DNA from: an uncultured Ignavibacteriales bacterium
GTDB lineage: Bacteria > Zixibacteria > MSB-5A5 > GN15 > FEB-12
Length of the DNA: 20,000 nt
Direction: 5' to 3'
Assembly: GCA_964464605.1 (NCBI GenBank)
Contig: CAYXJN010000005.1
Coordinates: 301,184 to 321,183, forward strand
A program made the position numbers. This document shows positions 12,001 through 20,000 of the stretch, piece after piece. Position 1 is the stretch's first letter; every line of letters begins with the position of its first letter.

Positions 12001-15000
12001 TGCGCAAATTGCGAATGACGCGGACGTCAAGCTGCTTGTGTACTATCACTTGCTTCCGGCTCCGGACGGTTTCCTTGCCCGCCGCTTGTTCTCTAACGGC
12101 GTCAATGATGTCAGAAAAGGGGACTGGACAATGGCCGAAGACGGCAGCCTCTACACCCTTCCACTCGGTTCGGATAACGTCCGCATCGGTCGCATTGAAT
12201 AAAGAGGAGAGTGATGAAAACGAACCGGTCGATCTGCGAGAAGTTAGCGCGCGATCGACCGGAAAAGATGACGTACTTCCCGGTGATGCAAGTTTTAGCA
12301 AGAATGCTTTTGTGAATAATTTATTGAAGAACATTCTGTGATCTGAAAGAACTCTCTTTGTCTCAAGAAAGTTGCTCCCCCAACAGGACGTTCTTAGAAC
12401 TTTTGAGGGATTCATTAAGTATATTTTAGCTGCTTGACTATCTCAGGGTATGAGATCCACCACATGCGTTTCGCAACTGGACTCTCGAATTTGCCGCTTG
12501 AGATTCTTTTGCCGAAACATAAATCCCAGGATCATGCTTCGCAAGTATGACCTCCTGATTGTGACAAGAGTAACAATCGGTGGTTGATTGAAAGTGACCG
12601 TCAATGGGGCAAAAATAAAAGTCTTTCATAAAAGCACTCAATCTTGTAAGGTTTGGTATAACTTATAGTTATACCAAACCAACTACGACTCGCTTAGTCC
12701 TGTTTTTACCATAAATTCCTTCTGCTTTTAGGTCGATAATATTGAGATGAAGATTAGATATGCATATCTGCCGTGTGGCGGCAGGCTTCTCTCATAAGAA
12801 CGAGTCGGGAAATAGGAGAATGTCCTTTGCCTATGAGTATGGACCGTGCATCCGCAGTCAACATGCCCCAGTCATCTATGAGTGGTTCAACTAATGTGCA
12901 GAAACAGCGACAACATCGCTGGGTGTCATGGTGCATCTACCTGATTTCCATTTGCCTGCTCACTTGGTTATTTGTTGATGGAGCGTCATATTATTTGACT
13001 CCTTATAATGAACGGCCATTTCACCCGGACTATCGCGAACTTCGTCCGGCCGGGTCACGCGGACTTATGTTTGGAATAATCGGAGCGAGCATGATGGTAC
13101 TCATGCTTATTTATTCGGTCAGAAAACGGACGAAGGCACTTGGCGGCAAAATCCCGCTTCGGAGCATGCTCAATGTCCACATATACTGCGGGATCATAGG
13201 CCCGCTCTTTATTGTGCTGCATACATCGTTCAAAGTTCAGGGATTAGTTGCCGTCAGTTTCTGGTCCATGGTTGCGGTTGCCTTAAGCGGTTTCTTCGGT
13301 CGGTATCTTTATTCGCAGATTCCAAGAAACATCCAGGGAAATGAGCTTGGCCTGAAAGAAATCGAACAGGAAAGCACAGCGATGACGAAGACTCTTAAAA
13401 CTCGCTTCAATCTTGATGATCCGATCCTTCAACAGATAGAATCGATCTTCTCACGAGAGTTAATTCACACCCAGCGCGGCACCATCAGGTCTATCGTGAC
13501 TCTCATGTTCGATGATCTTATTCGACCATTCACGCGACGAAGTCTTTGGAGAAAGCTGCGAAGAATAATCATCTTACCCAAGTTGCAATTCCAGGATTTG
13601 TTTGAACTATCTTTCAAGCGGACGCTTTTGCGGAGGCGACTTGCCGCCCTGGCGAATGTTCAAAAGCTCTTTCACTACTGGCATGTTATCCATAAACCGT
13701 TCGCGATTATTATGTATCTCATTATGTTTGTGCATATCGGCGTTGCCTTATGGATGGGGTACGCTTGGTTCAACTGAATACAGGTTCAACATGAACTTTC
13801 GGAATATCGGAGTTCTGGTCATGATGTTGCTTTTGTCTGAAGTAGCAGTCGTACAGGCACAACTCTCGCCGGGTGAATTGCACAAATCGCATGCCTTTCT
13901 GGACGGCGTTGAGAATTGTACTAAGTGCCATGGCACCGATCAAAAATTGGTAGCAGACAATTGCCTCAAATGCCATGCGACTATCGGCGAAGAGCTTGTA
14001 TCTCAAACCGGGCTGCATGGAAAACAGCAATATAAAGACTGTCAGCTCTGTCATGTCGAGCATCATGGGCGCGACTTTGCTCTGATTCACTGGAAAGAAG
14101 GGGAATTGAATTTTGATCACTCGCTTACCGGCTATAGGCTGGAAGGGAAGCATGCATCAATTGATTGCCGATCCTGTCATCAAAAGAAGCTCCTTGTTGC
14201 GGCGTCGAAGCTGTTAGAACAAAAAATCACTCTCGCAAAAACCTTTCTGGGCTTGAGCAACGAATGCAAGAACTGCCACTTTGATGAACATCGCGGACAA
14301 TTGAATGAAACCTGCGGCAACTGCCATTCAAGTGATGACTGGAAACCGACGAAAGGGTTTGATCATGCAAAGACAGTATTTCCATTGGTCGGAAAGCATG
14401 CAGATGTTTTCTGCGCAAAGTGCCATCTCACGCAATCGGATGGTTCAACATCAGATGACGGGCAGTTCGCTAAATTCACTAAAATAGCGCATGATCAGTG
14501 CACCGACTGCCATACCGACGTACACAACGGAAAGCTCGGAGCAAACTGCATGAATTGCCACAGTGTGGATGGCTGGCATGTTGCCAACCGAGCCGAATTC
14601 GATCATAGCAAAACGAGATATCCGCTTAACGGAAAACATGCGGCGGTTGCTTGCGATAAATGCCATATCCCGGGAAAAGAGCGAGGGAAACTGAAGTTTG
14701 AAAAATGTCAGGATTGCCACGCCGATTTTCACAAGGGAGAGTTTGCCTCAAGAAATTCAAAAGGAGCCTGTGAGGAATGCCACACGGTCGGCGGATTTTC
14801 TCCTTCACTGTTTACCATTGCGCTGCATGAGGAGAGCAAGTATCCGTTGCGTGGCGCACATCAGGCCGTTCCCTGCATAGCTTGCCATGTTGAGCCGACC
14901 AAGGGAACACAAAAGAAAAATCTTCATTTCGAATTTGCATCGACACAGTGCTTCGCTTGTCACAAAGACCCGCACCGGGGAGAAGTTACTAAATATGTCG

Positions 15001-18000: not shown

Positions 18001-20000
18001 TTCAGTTCGGCCATTCGTTTTGGTCTTAGCTATGATAATCGCACCAATTACTGGACGCTTGAAACGAGATCATTGGTCGATAGCATATTCGACGACCGCC
18101 TTCGGCAGGGGGCTCGCGCACAGCTCGATCTCAGACTTCCCCTGCGTGTGCAAACATCCTATTCTTTTGGATTTCGCGAACGGGAGGGTGATTCTGATCC
18201 TACCCTCACTCATTCTGTCTATGTTAACCGGTCAGGACTTATTCGAAGAACAATCACCGCAAGTGTTCAATGGAGTTCGTTTGACGGCCCGTTTGAACAG
18301 GGGAGGAATTATTCGGCGCAGGTTGGTGACTACTTGCTGCCTCAGGTATATGCGTCAGTGTCGTATGGCGGCTATGAGTATGGTCTTACGACTGAAAATG
18401 TCTGGCGTCGAAATCACAGGATTTCATTATCAACACAGGTCGATTTTGCTCGTCGCTATTCTCTCAGCGGCTCAATCGAATTCGACAATGGGGATGATCT
18501 GAAGGGAACGCGATTCTTAACCGAGCTTGGCTATCGGTTCTAAGAATTCCTGTACAAACAGAAAAGCATATGGAACAATTACTCATCTGGATAGCGGTCG
18601 CGATTGTCATTCTTATCATAATCATCCCGTATTTTTTTCAGTTTCGAAAGCAGCAGAAAGTTGTCGCTGAGCGAAAGAAGGAAGCTCAGGCAATGGGGTT
18701 CGATCGTCCCCGCGCGCAATATCCAATGGTTGACCGTGCTGTTTGCATCGGTTGCGGTGCCTGCGTGGAAGCATGTCCGGAAGGGGACGTGCTTGGGGTA
18801 GTATGGGGTATTGCCGAAGTTATCAATGGGGAGCGTTGTGTTGGCCATGGCCACTGCGAAAAAGCATGTCCGGTTGGTGCGCTAAAAGTCGGTCTGGGTG
18901 ATATAACCAGCCGTCCGGATATCCCGATGCTTAACAGCAGCTATGAAACAAATGTGCCTGGATTGTTTATCGTCGGCGAGCTTGGTGGTATCTCACTCAT
19001 ACGGAACGCTATTTCACAAGGCCAAACAGCAGTCGAAGCAATTGCTTCTCGTTGCCGAGGCAACTCCAATGAATCAATCACTGATGTCATGGTTGTCGGC
19101 GCTGGGCCAGCGGGCCTTTCCGCTGCTCTTACTGCTATTCAACACAAGCTCTCATATGTCTTCATTGATGAACGTGAAGTTGGCGGTGCGATTCTGCACT
19201 ATCCGAGAAAGAAGCTGGTGATGACCCAGCCGGTGCAGATTCCATTGTATGGATGGTTTCGGGAAACTGAGTATTCGAAGGAGTATCTCATGGAAACATG
19301 GGACACAATTATTAGGCAATTCGGAATCAAGATACGCACGAATGAAAGACTCGAAACAATCCAACAGTTGGGAGATCTGTTTGAAGTGCATACTTCAAAT
19401 GGCGTCTATATGTCGAGACATGTCGTTCTCGCTTTAGGTCGGAGAGGTACACCCCGAAAATTGGAAGTGCCGGGAGAGGAATCTTCAAAGGTTCTGTACA
19501 CTCTGATAGATACTCGCTCGTATCAGGGGAAACAGATGCTTGTCGTGGGAGGAGGCGATAGCGCTGTTGAAGCAGCCGTCGGTCTTGCAAAACAGAAGGG
19601 AAATACCGTCACGATTTCATATCGTAAGAACAGTTTCTTCCGGGTAAAGAAAAAAAATGAAGACGCAATCAATAAGTTCATCGCTGAAGGGAAAGTTGTC
19701 CCGATTTTTGATTCGCAGGTCACAGAAATTCGTGAGAGATGTGTTGCTTTAGAAACAAAACAAGGGATTCAGGAAATCCCCAACGACTTTGTACTCGTGC
19801 AAATTGGTGGTATTCCACCGTTCGAGCTCTTGCGAAGTATGGGTATTGCTTTTGGCGGCGAAAGTCGCAGCTTGCACGAACAGGCCCTACCGTTGCTGAC
19901 ATAACCCCTGTATCTGCTTACTATATATGTAGTTGAAATTCAATTGCTCCCGAGGCAGGACTCGAACCTGCGACCCGCTGATTAACAGTCAGCTGCTCTA

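What a model noticed while it worked through the whole genome (the two positions that open the first line are those of the whole stretch)
12833..19904. Conserved five-gene porin-cytochrome conduit: di-haem membrane protein, 20-haem and 19-haem cytochromes, outer-membrane [...]
g01531-g01535 (one strand) form an operon for a trans-envelope electron path: g01531, a polytopic membrane protein with two invariant His-x13-His pairs (the bis-haem signature of ferric-reductase-domain proteins); g01532, a c-type cytochrome with 20 CxxCH sites; g01533, a second one with 19; g01534, a 538-aa secreted protein predicted to be a large beta-barrel ending ...GYRF; g01535, an N-terminally anchored protein with two [4Fe-4S] motifs and an FAD/NAD(P)-binding oxidoreductase domain. 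The first four have no row in the ready Pfam/NCBIfam tables. The layout suggests electrons passing between cytoplasmic NAD(P)H (g01535), membrane haems b (g01531) and 39 haems c threaded through a porin (g0 [...]
Evidence so far: CxxCH census: only these two proteins exceed 5 sites. Relaxed Pfam: both hit Cytochrome_C7/c3 and MtrC/MtrF domain II/IV models (4e-10 to 2e-19); g01531 Ferric_reduct 0.004; g01535 Fer4 x2 + Pyr_redox_3 9e-44; g01534 none. Same five genes in the same order in 6 of 6 relatives' loci from families f1, f5, f7, f20 (35-70% identity; calls 187-189); site counts 20 in all six and 19/28/28/67/52/16. Seven g01531 orthologues: H116, H130, H287, H301 invariant. g01534 model (pLDDT 72): about 22 long strands from residue 136 to the end; Y536 and F538 invariant. 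The second cytochrome is found in 27 of 61 sampled Zixibacteria genomes.
(Added by a program. Inside this text positions count along the whole contig: contig position 301,184 is position 1 of the stretch shown here. "Call 12" and the like, gene names such as g00115 and contig names such as C1 are that model's own, and its searches are not shown. The text may have been shortened before it was handed on; [...] marks where a part breaks off. The agent that wrote the report below was given it as the finding of a first reader that could run no searches.)

Follow-up and report, generated by a model that had tools for sequence, protein, structure and literature searches.

The report
Five-gene cytochrome conduit across the envelope
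Five tightly packed genes appear to build an electrical path from the cell interior to the cell surface, using a new kind of inner-membrane entry module, a fixed 20-haem periplasmic wire, and a variable-length haem wire paired with an outer-membrane barrel.

Summary
Five + strand genes lie at 12833-19904. A is a 314-aa membrane protein with four conserved His. B has 20 CxxCH sites and C has 19. D is a 538-aa barrel. E has a membrane anchor, an Fe-S domain and a flavoprotein domain. No other frame in the genome exceeds 5 CxxCH.

New evidence:
- **E and A work together.** They are fused into one protein in 4 Anaeromyxobacteraceae loci. In 2 of those, the fusion is followed by a 20-haem B homologue, a 10-haem C homologue, a lipoprotein cytochrome and (shown in L042) a D homologue.
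- **Co-occurrence.** A and D occur together in 46 of the 51 phylum genomes (151 sampled) that have either.
- **D.** It models (pLDDT 87) as a 22-strand barrel closest to TonB-dependent-transporter barrels, with no plug.
- **A.** It models (pLDDT 89) as a 5-helix protein. Its His pairs sit at two membrane depths, and it matches di-haem-b families only weakly.
- **C.** It has a constant 7-haem head plus n copies of a 72-residue tri-haem module, giving 10 to 70 haems. B always has 20.

Best reading: a porin-cytochrome conduit for extracellular electron transfer, fed by a NOX-like but unrelated NAD(P)H/FAD/Fe-S/haem-b module. The direction of flow and independence from quinones are inferred. I rate it a new variant of a known kind.

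The parts
12833..13777 (+). Gene A: 314-aa inner-membrane protein, proposed di-haem b cytochrome. Five membrane helices with a roughly 90-residue cytoplasmic helical insert between helices 4 and 5.
   Evidence: AF2 model has pLDDT 89.1 and pTM 0.79, with helices 18-49, 75-100, 109-130, 137-161 and 250-307. The family has 4116 representatives at E<=1e-3. None of the 120 homologues listed carries a precomputed Pfam domain. Weak hits to Ferric_reduct in 17/30 members, DUF4405 in 16/30 and Ni_hydr_CYTB in 10/30.
13178..13222 (+). Codons of H116 (13178-13180) to H130 (13220-13222): the His-x13-His pair on helix 3 of A.
   Evidence: Invariant in 30/30 sequences and in 12/12 sequences including the fused forms.
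13691..13735 (+). Codons of H287 (13691-13693) to H301 (13733-13735): the His-x13-His pair on helix 5 of A.
   Evidence: Invariant in 30/30 sequences. Conserved at 90% or more in the alignment with fused forms. Retained in fusion protein P0198.
13791..15467 (+). Gene B: 558-aa secreted c-type cytochrome with 20 CxxCH, proposed periplasmic bridge.
   Evidence: 20 CxxCH here, in 16/16 relatives' loci that hold B, and in 2/2 Anaeromyxobacteraceae cluster loci. Cytochrome_C7 1.9e-19. 26 further His for 20 haems.
15464..16927 (+). Gene C: 487-aa secreted c-type cytochrome with 19 CxxCH. A constant 7-haem head is followed by tri-haem modules.
   Evidence: CxxCH spacing is 36-16-16-35-19-25, then repeats of 32/33-15-25, then 35-15-28. 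Haem totals fit 7+3n in this window and in 12 of 13 same-order loci, ranging from 10 to 70.
16031..16909 (+). Tri-haem module region of C (about residues 190-482, four modules of about 72 aa).
   Evidence: Spacing pattern. In a 70-haem relative (L026) the DNA still reads as tandem arrays of period 216 and 432 bp. No DNA-level array is detected in this window.
16927..18543 (+). Gene D: 538-aa outer-membrane protein. It has a signal peptide, a small N-terminal beta domain (residues 26-96; 17002-17214), a disordered linker (103-129), and a 22-strand barrel (136-538; 17332-18540).
   Evidence: AF2 pLDDT 87.4. VIA-align best matches are 5t3r_D (Z 19.9, rmsd 4.0, 361 aligned), FyuA (Z 18.4) and BtuB (Z 18.2). 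MtrB 6r2q_B scores Z 14.6 at rank 33. Foldseek gives 320 outer-membrane barrel matches at E<=1e-3. No Pfam or NCBIfam family.
18570..19904 (+). Gene E: 444-aa protein. It has an N-terminal membrane anchor (about residues 5-24), two Fe-S motifs (residues 59-100; 18744-18869), and an FAD/NAD(P)-binding TrxR-like domain (residues 172-428; 19083-19853).
   Evidence: Pyr_redox_3 8.8e-44 and Fer4 models. Closest solved relatives are YpdA/Bdr 7a7b (4.4e-25) and TrxR-type ferredoxin-NADP reductases. Motifs CxxCxxCxxxCP and CxxHxxCxxxCP; the only Cys conserved in all 17 sequences lie in the two Fe-S motifs.

Best explanation
The five genes encode one trans-envelope electron conduit of the porin-cytochrome kind, with a previously undescribed inner-membrane entry module.

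**Proposed path:**
1. E is anchored to the inner membrane with its bulk in the cytoplasm. It exchanges electrons with NAD(P)H at its FAD and passes them through two Fe-S clusters. One of these carries a His ligand.
2. A carries two b haems stacked across the membrane. H116/H287 sit near the cytoplasm and H130/H301 near the periplasm.
3. B is a soluble wire of 20 mostly bis-His haems whose length never varies. It bridges the periplasm.
4. C seats its constant decahaem-sized core in the plugless 22-strand barrel D. It extends by 1 to 21 tri-haem modules, most likely outside the cell.

The likeliest direction is outward. Cytoplasmic reducing equivalents would be disposed of onto insoluble or extracellular acceptors such as Fe(III)/Mn(IV) minerals, humics, electrodes or partner cells, possibly bypassing the quinone pool.

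**Shown here:** gene content, conservation, the fusion, co-occurrence, motif conservation, and fold models.

**Inferred:** every cofactor, every protein location, all protein contacts, NAD(P)H as the donor, independence from quinones, and the direction of flow.
For: **One operon.**
- Adjacent genes overlap or lie 13-26 nt apart.
- Two exact-match contigs from an RNA library lie on the operon, and one bridges the B/C junction (15329-15548). This is only a weak hint, because DNA can be present in such libraries.

**Conserved unit.**
- All five genes are present in 16 of 18 fetched loci. No other neighbour is conserved in more than 5 loci.
- Of 151 sampled phylum genomes, D is found in 50 and A in 47. 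Of these, 46 have both, 4 have only D and 1 has only a weak A hit.

**E-A link.**
- E sits directly upstream of A in 3 divergent loci.
- Natural E-A fusion proteins exist. In P0198, residues 1-430 match E at 41% identity (1e-96) and residues 443-739 match A at 25% identity (8e-24), with all four His kept.
- The fusion order agrees with the deduced topology: the C-terminus of E and the N-terminus of A are both cytoplasmic. The K+R counts support this topology.
- Four such loci lie in Anaeromyxobacteraceae MAGs.
- In 2 of those 4 loci, the fusion gene is followed by a 20-CxxCH B homologue (38-40% identity), a 10-CxxCH C homologue with the same head spacing, and a 14- or 26-haem cytochrome with a lipobox. 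In L042 a D homologue follows (hhalign probability 98.1%, E 1e-13). L041 holds a barrel-like ORF at the same place that was not tested by hhalign.

**A as a transmembrane di-haem protein.**
- Four invariant His form two H-x13-H pairs on helices 3 and 5.
- The model is confident.
- There are recurrent weak hits to three di-haem-b families.
- Structural similarity to di-haem bundles is at noise level: CybB 5oc0_A at Z 7.4 with 133 aligned residues, and the designed 2-haem protein 7ah0 at Z 7.2.
- DUF4405 and related cytochromes were shown to bind haem b (PMC11334425, passages read).

**D as the conduit barrel.**
- 22 strands, no plug domain and no TonB-receptor Pfam hit.
- C and D occur as a stand-alone pair in 2 loci.

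**C as a modular wire.**
- Haem totals follow 7+3n.
- 216-bp tandem arrays persist in a relative.
- Where C is minimal (10 haems, Anaeromyxobacteraceae), a separate lipoprotein cytochrome is present. The Zixibacteria-type loci have no lipoprotein cytochrome, but C is extended.

**Low-potential chemistry.** There are enough extra His for bis-His ligation of every haem, and few Met.
Against: - There are no biochemical or genetic data.
- A scores below the curated cut-off of every family it touches. Foldseek found no fold match, and a profile search of PDB sequences found nothing.
- The E-A fusion also occurs alone, with no cytochromes nearby, in 2 of 4 Anaeromyxobacteraceae loci. The module is therefore not dedicated to this conduit.
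- Neither B nor C has a lipobox, so a surface-exposed component is not evident in this genome.
- Nothing shows that C's extension lies outside the cell. It could instead lie coiled in the periplasm.
- Di-haem b proteins are often quinone-reactive, so quinol could be the real donor.
- Outward electron export from NAD(P)H would dissipate membrane potential, so the energetic benefit is unclear.
- The RNA evidence is two short contigs from one run.
Confidence: 0.6

Rival explanations
1. Same hardware, opposite direction. This would be an electron-uptake conduit that oxidises extracellular donors such as Fe(II) minerals, cathodes, reduced humics or a syntrophic partner. Electrons would travel through C/D, B and A to E, which reduces NAD(P)+.
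For: All cofactors proposed are reversible, and TrxR-type ferredoxin-NADP reductases work in both directions (family knowledge; relatives). Published genome surveys assign Zixibacteria both iron-oxidising and iron-reducing potential (PMC8478452 and PMC3903129, passages read), though on the basis of other gene clusters. Inward electron movement would build membrane potential rather than spend it.
Against: Reducing NAD(P)+ (about -320 mV) from Fe(II)-type donors, against the membrane potential, is strongly uphill. No energy-coupling subunit is encoded in the cluster. The apparent bis-His, c3/c7-type haems are typical of low-potential reductive chains. The homologous cluster lies in Anaeromyxobacteraceae, a group known from memory as metal reducers.
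Confidence: 0.12
2. A is a quinol:cytochrome c oxidoreductase, the functional analogue of CymA, ImcH or CbcL. The conduit would be fed from the menaquinol pool. E would be an accessory enzyme, for example an NAD(P)H:quinone reductase docked on A or a redox sensor.
For: All characterised Gram-negative conduits are quinol-fed (recalled; PMC6295460 seen only in a search listing). A's weak family hits include Ni_hydr_CYTB in 10/30 members, and its best di-haem structural match is CybB. Both are quinone-reactive families. A has a strongly conserved periplasm-side loop (residues 50-74) that could form a quinol site.
Against: The covalent E-A fusion, with its Fe-S clusters next to the membrane, suggests direct Fe-S-to-haem transfer rather than diffusion through a quinone. 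A second class of fusions joins a poly-ferredoxin (Fer4_11/HydN-like) domain to an A-like domain. No quinone-site motif could be tested.
Confidence: 0.18
3. The system does not cross the outer membrane. B and C would act as periplasmic electron stores or as a reductase for a soluble periplasmic substrate, and D would be an ordinary diffusion or uptake channel for that substrate.
For: Neither cytochrome has a lipobox. Variable-length c7-type polymers are described as periplasmic in Geobacter (recalled). D's closest structural matches are transport barrels.
Against: C and D overlap by 1 nt and persist as a pair when the other genes are absent. D lacks a plug, a TonB-receptor signature and any porin family hit. 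The homologous Anaeromyxobacteraceae clusters add a lipoprotein multihaem cytochrome next to the barrel, the usual layout of outer-membrane conduits. A 70-haem C plus a 20-haem B would be hard to accommodate in the periplasm (inference).
Confidence: 0.08

Closest known systems
MtrCAB of Shewanella (PDB 6r2q) and MtoAB/PioAB
   Same: The logic is the same: a multihaem cytochrome encoded directly upstream of, and proposed to sit inside, an outer-membrane barrel. The minimal form of C has 10 haems, like MtrA.
   Different: D has 22 strands rather than 26, and no MtrB_PioB Pfam hit at E<=1. It scores lower against MtrB (Z 14.6) than against TonB-dependent barrels (Z 18-20). B and C score 46 and 22 bits against the DmsE/MtrA decahaem model, whose cut-off is 192. 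There is no MtrC-like lipoprotein here, and the inner-membrane feed is not CymA-like.
Geobacter porin-cytochrome clusters (OmaB-OmbB-OmcB; ExtABCD, ExtEFG, ExtHIJKL), recalled from memory and from PMC7399161 passages
   Same: Each has a periplasmic multihaem cytochrome, a barrel and an outer cytochrome in one cluster, with several unrelated barrel families serving the same role. The Anaeromyxobacteraceae version of the present cluster carries a lipoprotein cytochrome, as these do.
   Different: D matched no NCBIfam model at E<=1. I could not compare D directly with the Geobacter barrels. The Geobacter clusters encode no inner-membrane or cytoplasmic module, whereas here E and A are part of the conserved unit.
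NADPH oxidases (NOX) and the two-component Fre-MsrQ system of E. coli (recalled)
   Same: Cytoplasmic NAD(P)H is oxidised by a flavoprotein, and electrons cross the membrane through b haem held by His pairs on two helices. The system can exist as one polypeptide (NOX; the E-A fusion) or as two (Fre+MsrQ; E+A here).
   Different: E is a TrxR/YpdA-type two-dinucleotide-domain flavoprotein with two added Fe-S clusters, not an FNR-type NOX dehydrogenase domain. A has five modelled helices and scores below the Ferric_reduct cut-off. The electron acceptor is a multihaem chain, not O2 or MsrP.
DUF4405 / MsrQ-like / PepSY-like (FoxB) / FezC membrane cytochromes (PMC11334425, passages read)
   Same: Small polytopic proteins with four central His as the best-conserved residues, proposed to carry electrons across the cytoplasmic membrane. 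Haem b binding was shown for DUF4405 and FezC.
   Different: A reaches only E = 1.6e-4 at best against DUF4405, in 16/30 members. It carries a roughly 90-residue cytoplasmic insert. It partners with Fe-S/flavin and multihaem c proteins rather than flavinylated proteins.
Geobacter c7-type polymers such as the dodecahaem GSU1996 (recalled)
   Same: Tandem tri-haem c7-like modules form an elongated wire. B and C both hit Cytochrome_C7 in several stretches.
   Different: C has a constant 7-haem head, a copy number ranging from 1 to 21 between relatives, and an obligate barrel partner.
TonB-dependent transporters
   Same: These are the best structural matches to the 22-strand barrel (Z 17-20, about 350 aligned residues).
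   Different: D has no plug domain, no TonB-receptor or Plug Pfam hit, and only 5-11% identity. It carries a roughly 70-residue beta domain of unknown fold in place of the plug.

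Membership tests
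Porin-cytochrome conduit (functional class) | Outer-membrane beta-barrel gene adjacent to multihaem c-type cytochrome genes carrying export signals | tested here: met
   D models as a 22-strand barrel. C overlaps D by 1 nt. B and C have 20 and 19 CxxCH and N-terminal hydrophobic leaders. The arrangement is conserved in 18/18 fetched loci for the C-D pair.
Porin-cytochrome conduit (functional class) | Surface-exposed (usually lipoprotein) cytochrome | tested here: not met
   Neither B nor C in the window has a lipobox Cys. Lipobox cytochromes are present only in the Anaeromyxobacteraceae homologues.
Porin-cytochrome conduit (functional class) | Electron transfer across the outer membrane | not testable with these tools
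   This needs proteoliposome or whole-cell assays.
MtrB/PioB barrel family (PF11854) | Match to the family profile; 26-strand barrel | tested here: not met
   D has no hit at E<=1, and the own genome has none. D models with 22 strands. The structural match to 6r2q_B is Z 14.6 at rank 33.
MtrA/DmsE decahaem family (TIGR03508) | Score above the curated cut-off (192.2 bits) | tested here: not met
   B scores 46.3 bits and C 21.9 bits.
Ferric reductase domain (PF01794; NOX/FRE/MsrQ) | Match above the gathering score (28 bits) | tested here: not met
   A scores 17.5 bits (E 0.0043), covering profile positions 1-60 of 121. 17 of 30 family members hit at E<=0.1, with a best E of 0.0012.
Ferric reductase domain (PF01794; NOX/FRE/MsrQ) | Two His pairs about 13 residues apart on two transmembrane helices separated by one helix | tested here: met
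   H116/H130 lie on helix 3 and H287/H301 on helix 5. All four are invariant in 30/30 sequences.
Ferric reductase domain (PF01794; NOX/FRE/MsrQ) | Six-helix transmembrane core (recalled) | tested here: not met
   The model has five membrane-length helices plus a cytoplasmic helical insert.
Di-haem b cytochromes of the DUF4405 / Ni_hydr_CYTB kind | Profile match and shared fold | tested here: inconclusive
   DUF4405 hits 16/30 members (best E 1.6e-4) and Ni_hydr_CYTB hits 10/30 (best E 7.4e-4), all below the cut-offs. CybB 5oc0_A gives Z 7.4, rmsd 3.3 and 133 aligned residues, which is within the noise range for helical bundles.
Di-haem b cytochromes of the DUF4405 / Ni_hydr_CYTB kind | Binds haem b | not testable with these tools
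   This needs expression and a pyridine haemochrome assay.
TonB-dependent transporters | 22-strand barrel with an N-terminal plug and a TonB box | tested here: not met
   The barrel geometry matches (Z up to 19.9). However, there is no Plug or TonB_dep_Rec hit, and the N-terminal domain has only about 70 residues.
Pyridine nucleotide-disulphide oxidoreductase superfamily, TrxR/YpdA/FNR branch (for E) | Pyr_redox_3 / Pyr_redox_2 above cut-off; GxGxxG FAD and NAD(P) motifs | tested here: met
   Pyr_redox_3 scores 150.4 bits (cut-off 30). G177-x-G179-x-x-G182 is invariant, and in the second motif (residues 327-332) G327, G329 and S331 are invariant while G328 and D330 are conserved at 90% or more. 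The closest solved relatives are YpdA/Bdr and TrxR-type FNRs.
YpdA bacillithiol-disulfide reductase equivalog (TIGR04018) | Score above 339.9 bits | tested here: not met
   171.6 bits. E also carries an extra membrane anchor and Fe-S domain.
NADPH oxidase (NOX) family | FNR-type FAD_binding_8 / NAD_binding_6 dehydrogenase domain fused to a ferric reductase domain (recalled) | tested here: not met
   Those domains do not appear among the 25 best of E's 36 Pfam matches, and none appear in fusion protein P0198. The resemblance is one of design, not of descent.

The most novel reading that the evidence does not exclude
This would be a quinone-independent 'electron vent'. A NOX-like module built from unrelated parts (TrxR-type flavoprotein, two Fe-S clusters, a new 5-helix di-haem b protein) carries electrons from cytoplasmic NAD(P)H straight across the inner membrane. 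They then pass onto a 20-haem periplasmic ruler and out through a plugless 22-strand barrel. The exit runs along a single-polypeptide, cell-anchored haem nanowire whose reach is tuned in evolution by tandem gain and loss of 72-residue tri-haem modules (10 to 70 haems). The E-A module, which also occurs alone and in a poly-ferredoxin-fused form, would be a general and widespread route for exporting cytoplasmic electrons. The family has 4116 cluster representatives.
Probability: 0.3. Interest if true: 0.88.

Novelty: new variant of a known kind. Interest (0 to 1): 0.74.

Why it matters
Known bacterial outer-membrane conduits draw electrons from the quinone pool through CymA-, ImcH- or Cbc-type quinol dehydrogenases. 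This conserved cluster instead couples a porin-cytochrome complex to a cytoplasmic NAD(P)-flavo-Fe-S protein through a dedicated di-haem membrane protein. If that reading is right, it is a different way of wiring metabolism to minerals, electrodes or partner cells, and it would change how redox balance and energy yield are modelled for these organisms.

The finding also has three practical consequences:
- It assigns a testable role to a large family of unannotated membrane proteins: 4116 representatives at 50% identity, with no Pfam domain on any of the 120 homologues listed.
- It adds a fifth, TonB-receptor-like barrel type to the conduit barrels. HMM-based surveys built on MtrB, OmbB, ExtB/E and ExtI models would miss it.
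- It offers a natural length series (10 to 70 haems) of one modular cytochrome for studying long-range electron transfer.

The organism's DNA recurs in bioreactor, activated-sludge, wastewater and aquaculture metagenomes. Homologues in Anaeromyxobacteraceae may offer a cultivable route to experiments.

Tried and rejected
- **Complex prediction of A with E.** No verdict (score 0.04 against a mark of 0.32). This is evidence neither for nor against binding.
- **Foldseek of the A model against PDB.** Nothing at E<=1e-3.
- **VIA-align wide search for A.** The list is dominated by generic long-helix matches. The di-haem matches (CybB, designed 4D2) are not separable from noise.
- **Profile of A against PDB sequences.** Only chance-level hits.
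- **Apparent A-B fusion (P0332) and A-E-fragment chimera (P0347).** Rejected after reading them. They contain long Arg/Pro-rich stretches and pieces in the wrong order, typical of frameshifts or misassembly.
- **Sigma-54 promoter motif (recalled consensus) and sigma-70/terminator scans.** Counts were at or below shuffled expectation. No regulatory element is claimed.
- **Tandem repeats in the window's own C gene.** None at DNA level; the modules have diverged.
- **Conserved extra neighbours.** None beyond the five genes. The most frequent other cluster appears in only 5 of 18 loci and at varying positions.
- **The cbb3 oxidase operon upstream in the window.** It is not part of the conserved unit.
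- **ESM Atlas for A.** Only unnamed clusters (Acidobacteriota, Gemmatimonadota, Myxococcota). It gives a lead on taxonomic range and no function.
- **RNA run X20.** It covers only 5 of 30 bins of the operon. The uncovered parts say nothing.
- **Literature.** Passages were read in PMC3903129, PMC8478452, PMC7399161, PMC9769843 and PMC11334425. None of the passages describes this five-gene cluster. The Zixibacteria cluster in PMC3903129 is a different one (MtrAB homologues with PetAB). Supplements and subscription journals were not seen, so prior description cannot be excluded.

Full report
**1. What is in the sequence**

The window is the last 20 kb of a 321-kb contig of a 2.8-Mb genome. It ends 96 bases after gene E.

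Five + strand ORFs are packed together:

| Gene | Coordinates | Length |
|---|---|---|
| A | 12833-13777 | 314 aa |
| B | 13791-15467 | 558 aa |
| C | 15464-16927 | 487 aa |
| D | 16927-18543 | 538 aa |
| E | 18570-19904 | 444 aa |

B/C overlap by 4 nt and C/D by 1 nt. The other two gaps are 13 and 26 nt.

B has 20 CxxCH motifs and C has 19. In a six-frame census of the whole genome, the next-best frame has 5.

**2. The unit is conserved and self-contained**

D was found in 50 of 151 sampled genomes of the phylum and A in 47 of 151 (E<=1e-10).
- Comparing the two lists by hand, 46 genomes have both.
- Four have only D. One of these holds a C-D paralogue only, one has D at a contig start, one is a weak hit at 2e-4, and one is unexplained.
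- One has only a weak A hit at 27% identity.

I fetched 17.6-kb regions around D from 18 places in 17 genomes and located homologues of all five proteins.
- 13 loci have A-B-C-D-E.
- 3 divergent loci (25-45% identity) have E-A-B-C-D.
- 2 loci have only C-D.

All-against-all clustering of every ORF in these loci found no further conserved neighbour.

The upstream cbb3 oxidase operon and the sigma-54 activator in the window are therefore context, not parts of the unit.

**3. E and A belong together**

This is the main new result.

A search for longer relatives of A returned 10 fused proteins.
- Two of them (P0198, 742 aa; P0200, 708 aa) carry Fer4, Pyr_redox_2 and Pyr_redox_3 domains.
- P0198 residues 1-430 align with E at 41% identity (1e-96), including E's N-terminal anchor.
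- P0198 residues 443-739 align with the whole of A at 25% identity (8e-24), with all four His retained.
- The other eight join a poly-ferredoxin of the Fer4_11/HydN/DmsB kind to an A-like C-terminal domain. Where names are given, they are Myxococcales or Kofleriaceae.

A scan of reference genomes with P0198 found four E-A fusion loci in three Anaeromyxobacter/Anaeromyxobacteraceae MAGs.

In two of these loci (L041, L042) the fusion gene is followed by:
- a B homologue with exactly 20 CxxCH and nearly the same spacing (38-40% identity);
- a 10-CxxCH cytochrome with the same head spacing as C;
- a 14- or 26-CxxCH cytochrome with a lipobox;
- in L042, a 545-aa protein homologous to D (hhalign probability 98.1%, E 1e-13, covering the N-terminal domain and the first part of the barrel). 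L041 holds a barrel-like ORF at the same place that was not tested by hhalign.

In the other two loci (L039, L040) the fusion stands among unrelated genes.

The fusion order (E then A) matches the E-A adjacency in the three divergent Zixibacteria-type loci. It also matches the topology I deduce:
- E's anchor is followed by a cluster of K and R residues, so its bulk is cytoplasmic.
- A's N-terminus, its 101-108 loop and its 162-279 insert hold most of its K and R residues.

**4. Gene A**

A has 2165 homologues at E<=1e-3 in the 90%-clustered collection. The best 120 are listed, and none carries a precomputed Pfam domain or a functional name. A profile search finds 4116 representatives at 50% identity, 741 of them at E<=1e-30.

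With a 30-sequence alignment, AlphaFold2 gives pLDDT 89.1 and pTM 0.79. The model shows:
- membrane-length helices at 18-49, 75-100, 109-130 and 137-161;
- a helical cytoplasmic insert at 174-245;
- a long helix at 250-307.

H116 and H130 lie on helix 3, and H287 and H301 on helix 5. All four are invariant in 30 of 30 sequences. H116 and H130 are also invariant in the 12-sequence alignment that includes the fused forms, where H287 and H301 are conserved at 90% or more.

The 13-residue spacing places one pair near each membrane face. This is the classical arrangement for two stacked b haems (established for cytochrome b and ferric-reductase domains; recalled).

Evidence on family membership is weak.
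- Ferric_reduct hits 17/30 members, DUF4405 16/30 and Ni_hydr_CYTB 10/30, all below the curated cut-offs.
- Foldseek finds nothing.
- VIA-align lists E. coli CybB (Z 7.4, rmsd 3.3, 133 aligned) and a designed two-haem bundle (Z 7.2) among many equally scored helical proteins.

A is best described as a new, remote branch of the di-haem-b membrane cytochromes. Haem b binding has been shown for DUF4405 and FezC in that group (PMC11334425, passages read).

**5. Gene E**

E consists of:
- an N-terminal hydrophobic anchor;
- a canonical CxxCxxCxxxCP motif;
- a second motif, C90-x2-H93-x2-C96-x3-C100-P, in which an invariant His replaces the second Cys;
- a TrxR-like two-dinucleotide domain with GxGxxG and GGGDSA motifs, followed by a basic Y-R-K stretch.

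The only Cys conserved in all 17 sequences lie in the two Fe-S motifs, so there is no conserved redox-active CxxC disulphide.

The closest solved relatives are YpdA/Bdr (4.4e-25) and TrxR-type ferredoxin-NADP reductases.

Two points are inferences only. One is NADPH preference, drawn from the basic stretch. The other is a role for the His-ligated cluster as the exit cluster, by analogy with hydrogenase distal clusters (recalled).

**6. Genes B and C**

Both are built from c7/c3-like tri-haem modules. They have 26 His beyond the CxxCH motifs for 20 and 19 haems respectively, and few Met residues. This is compatible with bis-His, low-potential haems.

B has 20 haems in 16 of 16 loci and in both Anaeromyxobacteraceae clusters.

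C has three parts:
- a constant head of 7 haems (spacing 36-16-16-35-19-25);
- n modules of 72 residues (spacing 32/33-15-25);
- a terminal module (spacing 35-15-28).

C's haem totals are 10, 16, 19, 22, 25, 28, 46, 52 and 70. These fit 7+3n in this window and in 12 of 13 same-order loci. The exception is split into three ORFs. The five divergent or paralogous loci show the same head and period, but their totals do not fit.

In the 70-haem relative the DNA still reads as 216- and 432-bp tandem arrays. This points to unequal recombination as the source of the length variation.

My inference is as follows. B's fixed length reflects a fixed distance, the periplasm. C's free length reflects an unconstrained space, the exterior. 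Where C is minimal (Anaeromyxobacteraceae) a separate lipoprotein cytochrome is present. Where there is none (Zixibacteria-type loci) C is extended. A periplasmic storage role for the extension is not excluded.

**7. Gene D**

D has 71 homologues, all unnamed or called hypothetical and none with a Pfam domain.

With a 60-sequence alignment the model has pLDDT 87.4:
- a signal peptide;
- a six-strand domain at residues 26-96;
- a disordered linker at 103-129;
- 22 strands from residue 136 to 537.

Foldseek gives 320 outer-membrane-barrel matches at E<=1e-3.

VIA-align ranks the 22-strand barrels of TonB-dependent transporters first: 5t3r_D (Z 19.9), FyuA (18.4) and BtuB (18.2), with about 350 aligned residues each. 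MtrB (6r2q_B) scores Z 14.6 at rank 33.

D has no plug and no TonB-receptor signature. The genome has no MtrB_PioB match.

A plugless 22-strand barrel offers a lumen of the size normally filled by a roughly 150-residue plug. That is wide enough in principle for a slender haem chain (inference).

**8. Expression and habitat**

Near-identical DNA occurs in bioreactor, activated-sludge, sludge, wastewater and aquaculture metagenomes from several studies. Some of these may be the source of the assembly.

One biofilm metatranscriptome run holds two exact-match contigs, at 15329-15548 (across the B/C junction) and 16258-16522 (inside C). This is a weak hint of transcription, because RNA libraries can contain DNA.

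**9. Mechanism and alternatives**

The best-supported reading is a porin-cytochrome conduit whose inner-membrane end is a NOX-like chain: NAD(P)H, FAD, two Fe-S clusters, two b haems. This chain is built from parts unrelated to NOX.

I favour outward flow for three reasons:
- The proposed haems look low-potential.
- No energy-coupling subunit is present to drive NAD(P)+ reduction.
- The homologous cluster sits in a lineage of metal reducers (recalled).

Outward flow from NAD(P)H would spend membrane potential. The pay-off would therefore be redox balancing rather than proton pumping (inference).

The rivals are inward electron uptake, a quinol-fed A with E as an accessory, and a purely periplasmic role. 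Each is listed with its own tests.

**10. Novelty**

Porin-cytochrome conduits, c7 polymers and NOX-like two-component systems are each known. Four things appear new:
- the combination of these elements;
- the A family's role;
- the TonB-receptor-like plugless barrel as a conduit barrel;
- the 7+3n length series of C.

My five literature searches and the passages I read did not turn up this cluster. The Zixibacteria cluster published for RBG-1 is a different one (MtrAB homologues with PetAB; PMC3903129). Supplements and non-open journals were not seen.

I rate the finding a new variant of a known kind, with interest 0.74.

Noticed in passing
window 691-6285 (+): A complete cbb3-type oxidase operon. 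It contains a fused CcoN-CcoO protein (714 aa, COX1 + FixO), CcoP (FixP_N + cytochrome c), CcoG/FixG (Fer4_18 + FixG_C), FixH and a DsbD_2 protein. The organism therefore also respires oxygen at low tension.
   Followed up: partly
window 6377-8503 (-): A sigma-54-dependent activator with GAF domains. A sigma-54 activator also lies next to the stand-alone E-A fusion in L039. No sigma-54 promoter motif was found above chance in the window.
   Followed up: partly
L025 4968-9599 and L031 4117-9589: Paralogous stand-alone C-D pairs (36- and 48-haem cytochrome plus barrel, 25-29% identity to D) with no A, B or E nearby. One of these genomes (G104) also holds the full five-gene cluster. In the other (G137), A was not found with this query.
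   Followed up: partly
L039 10001-12226; L040 10001-12235: The E-A fusion genes of Anaeromyxobacteraceae stand alone here among unrelated genes (two-component sensors, CheB/CheR-PAS, pirin, patatin). This suggests the module serves acceptors other than this conduit.
   Followed up: partly
P0192-P0197, P0199, P0201 (about 650-713 aa): A second class of fusion. An N-terminal poly-ferredoxin (Fer4_11, HydN/DmsB-like) is joined to a C-terminal A-like domain. Where names are given they are Myxococcales or Kofleriaceae. Their genomic context was not examined.
   Followed up: no
L026 10371-11344 and 12392-13147: The 70-haem version of C still shows DNA tandem arrays of period 432 and 216 bp at 69-77% match. 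This is consistent with recent module duplication.
   Followed up: partly
window 17002-17214 (D residues 26-96): A small, well-modelled six-strand beta domain with a conserved motif (consensus VKYxSAExVYLDGGxADGLxVGD) and near-invariant Cys77. It precedes the barrel and is conserved even in the Anaeromyxobacteraceae homologue. Its fold and role are unknown; it may be a periplasmic docking site or a lid.
   Followed up: no
window 12980-13054 (A residues 50-74): The periplasm-side loop of A (consensus SYYxTPYxERPHHxDYRxLRPAGxRG) is among the best-conserved parts of the protein. It is a candidate docking site for B or a quinol site.
   Followed up: no
P0332, P0347: Two database proteins look like A-B and A-E fusions but are probably frameshifted or chimeric assemblies. 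This is a caution for automated domain-architecture surveys of the family.
   Followed up: yes
window 8648-12202: Several unrelated genes lie between the oxidase operon and the conduit. Two ORFs have no Pfam match (8982-9779 on +, 8648-9103 on -). There is also a DJ-1/PfpI protein (9782-10675) and a metallo-beta-lactamase-fold protein with an N-terminal DUF4345 membrane domain (10691-12202).
   Followed up: no
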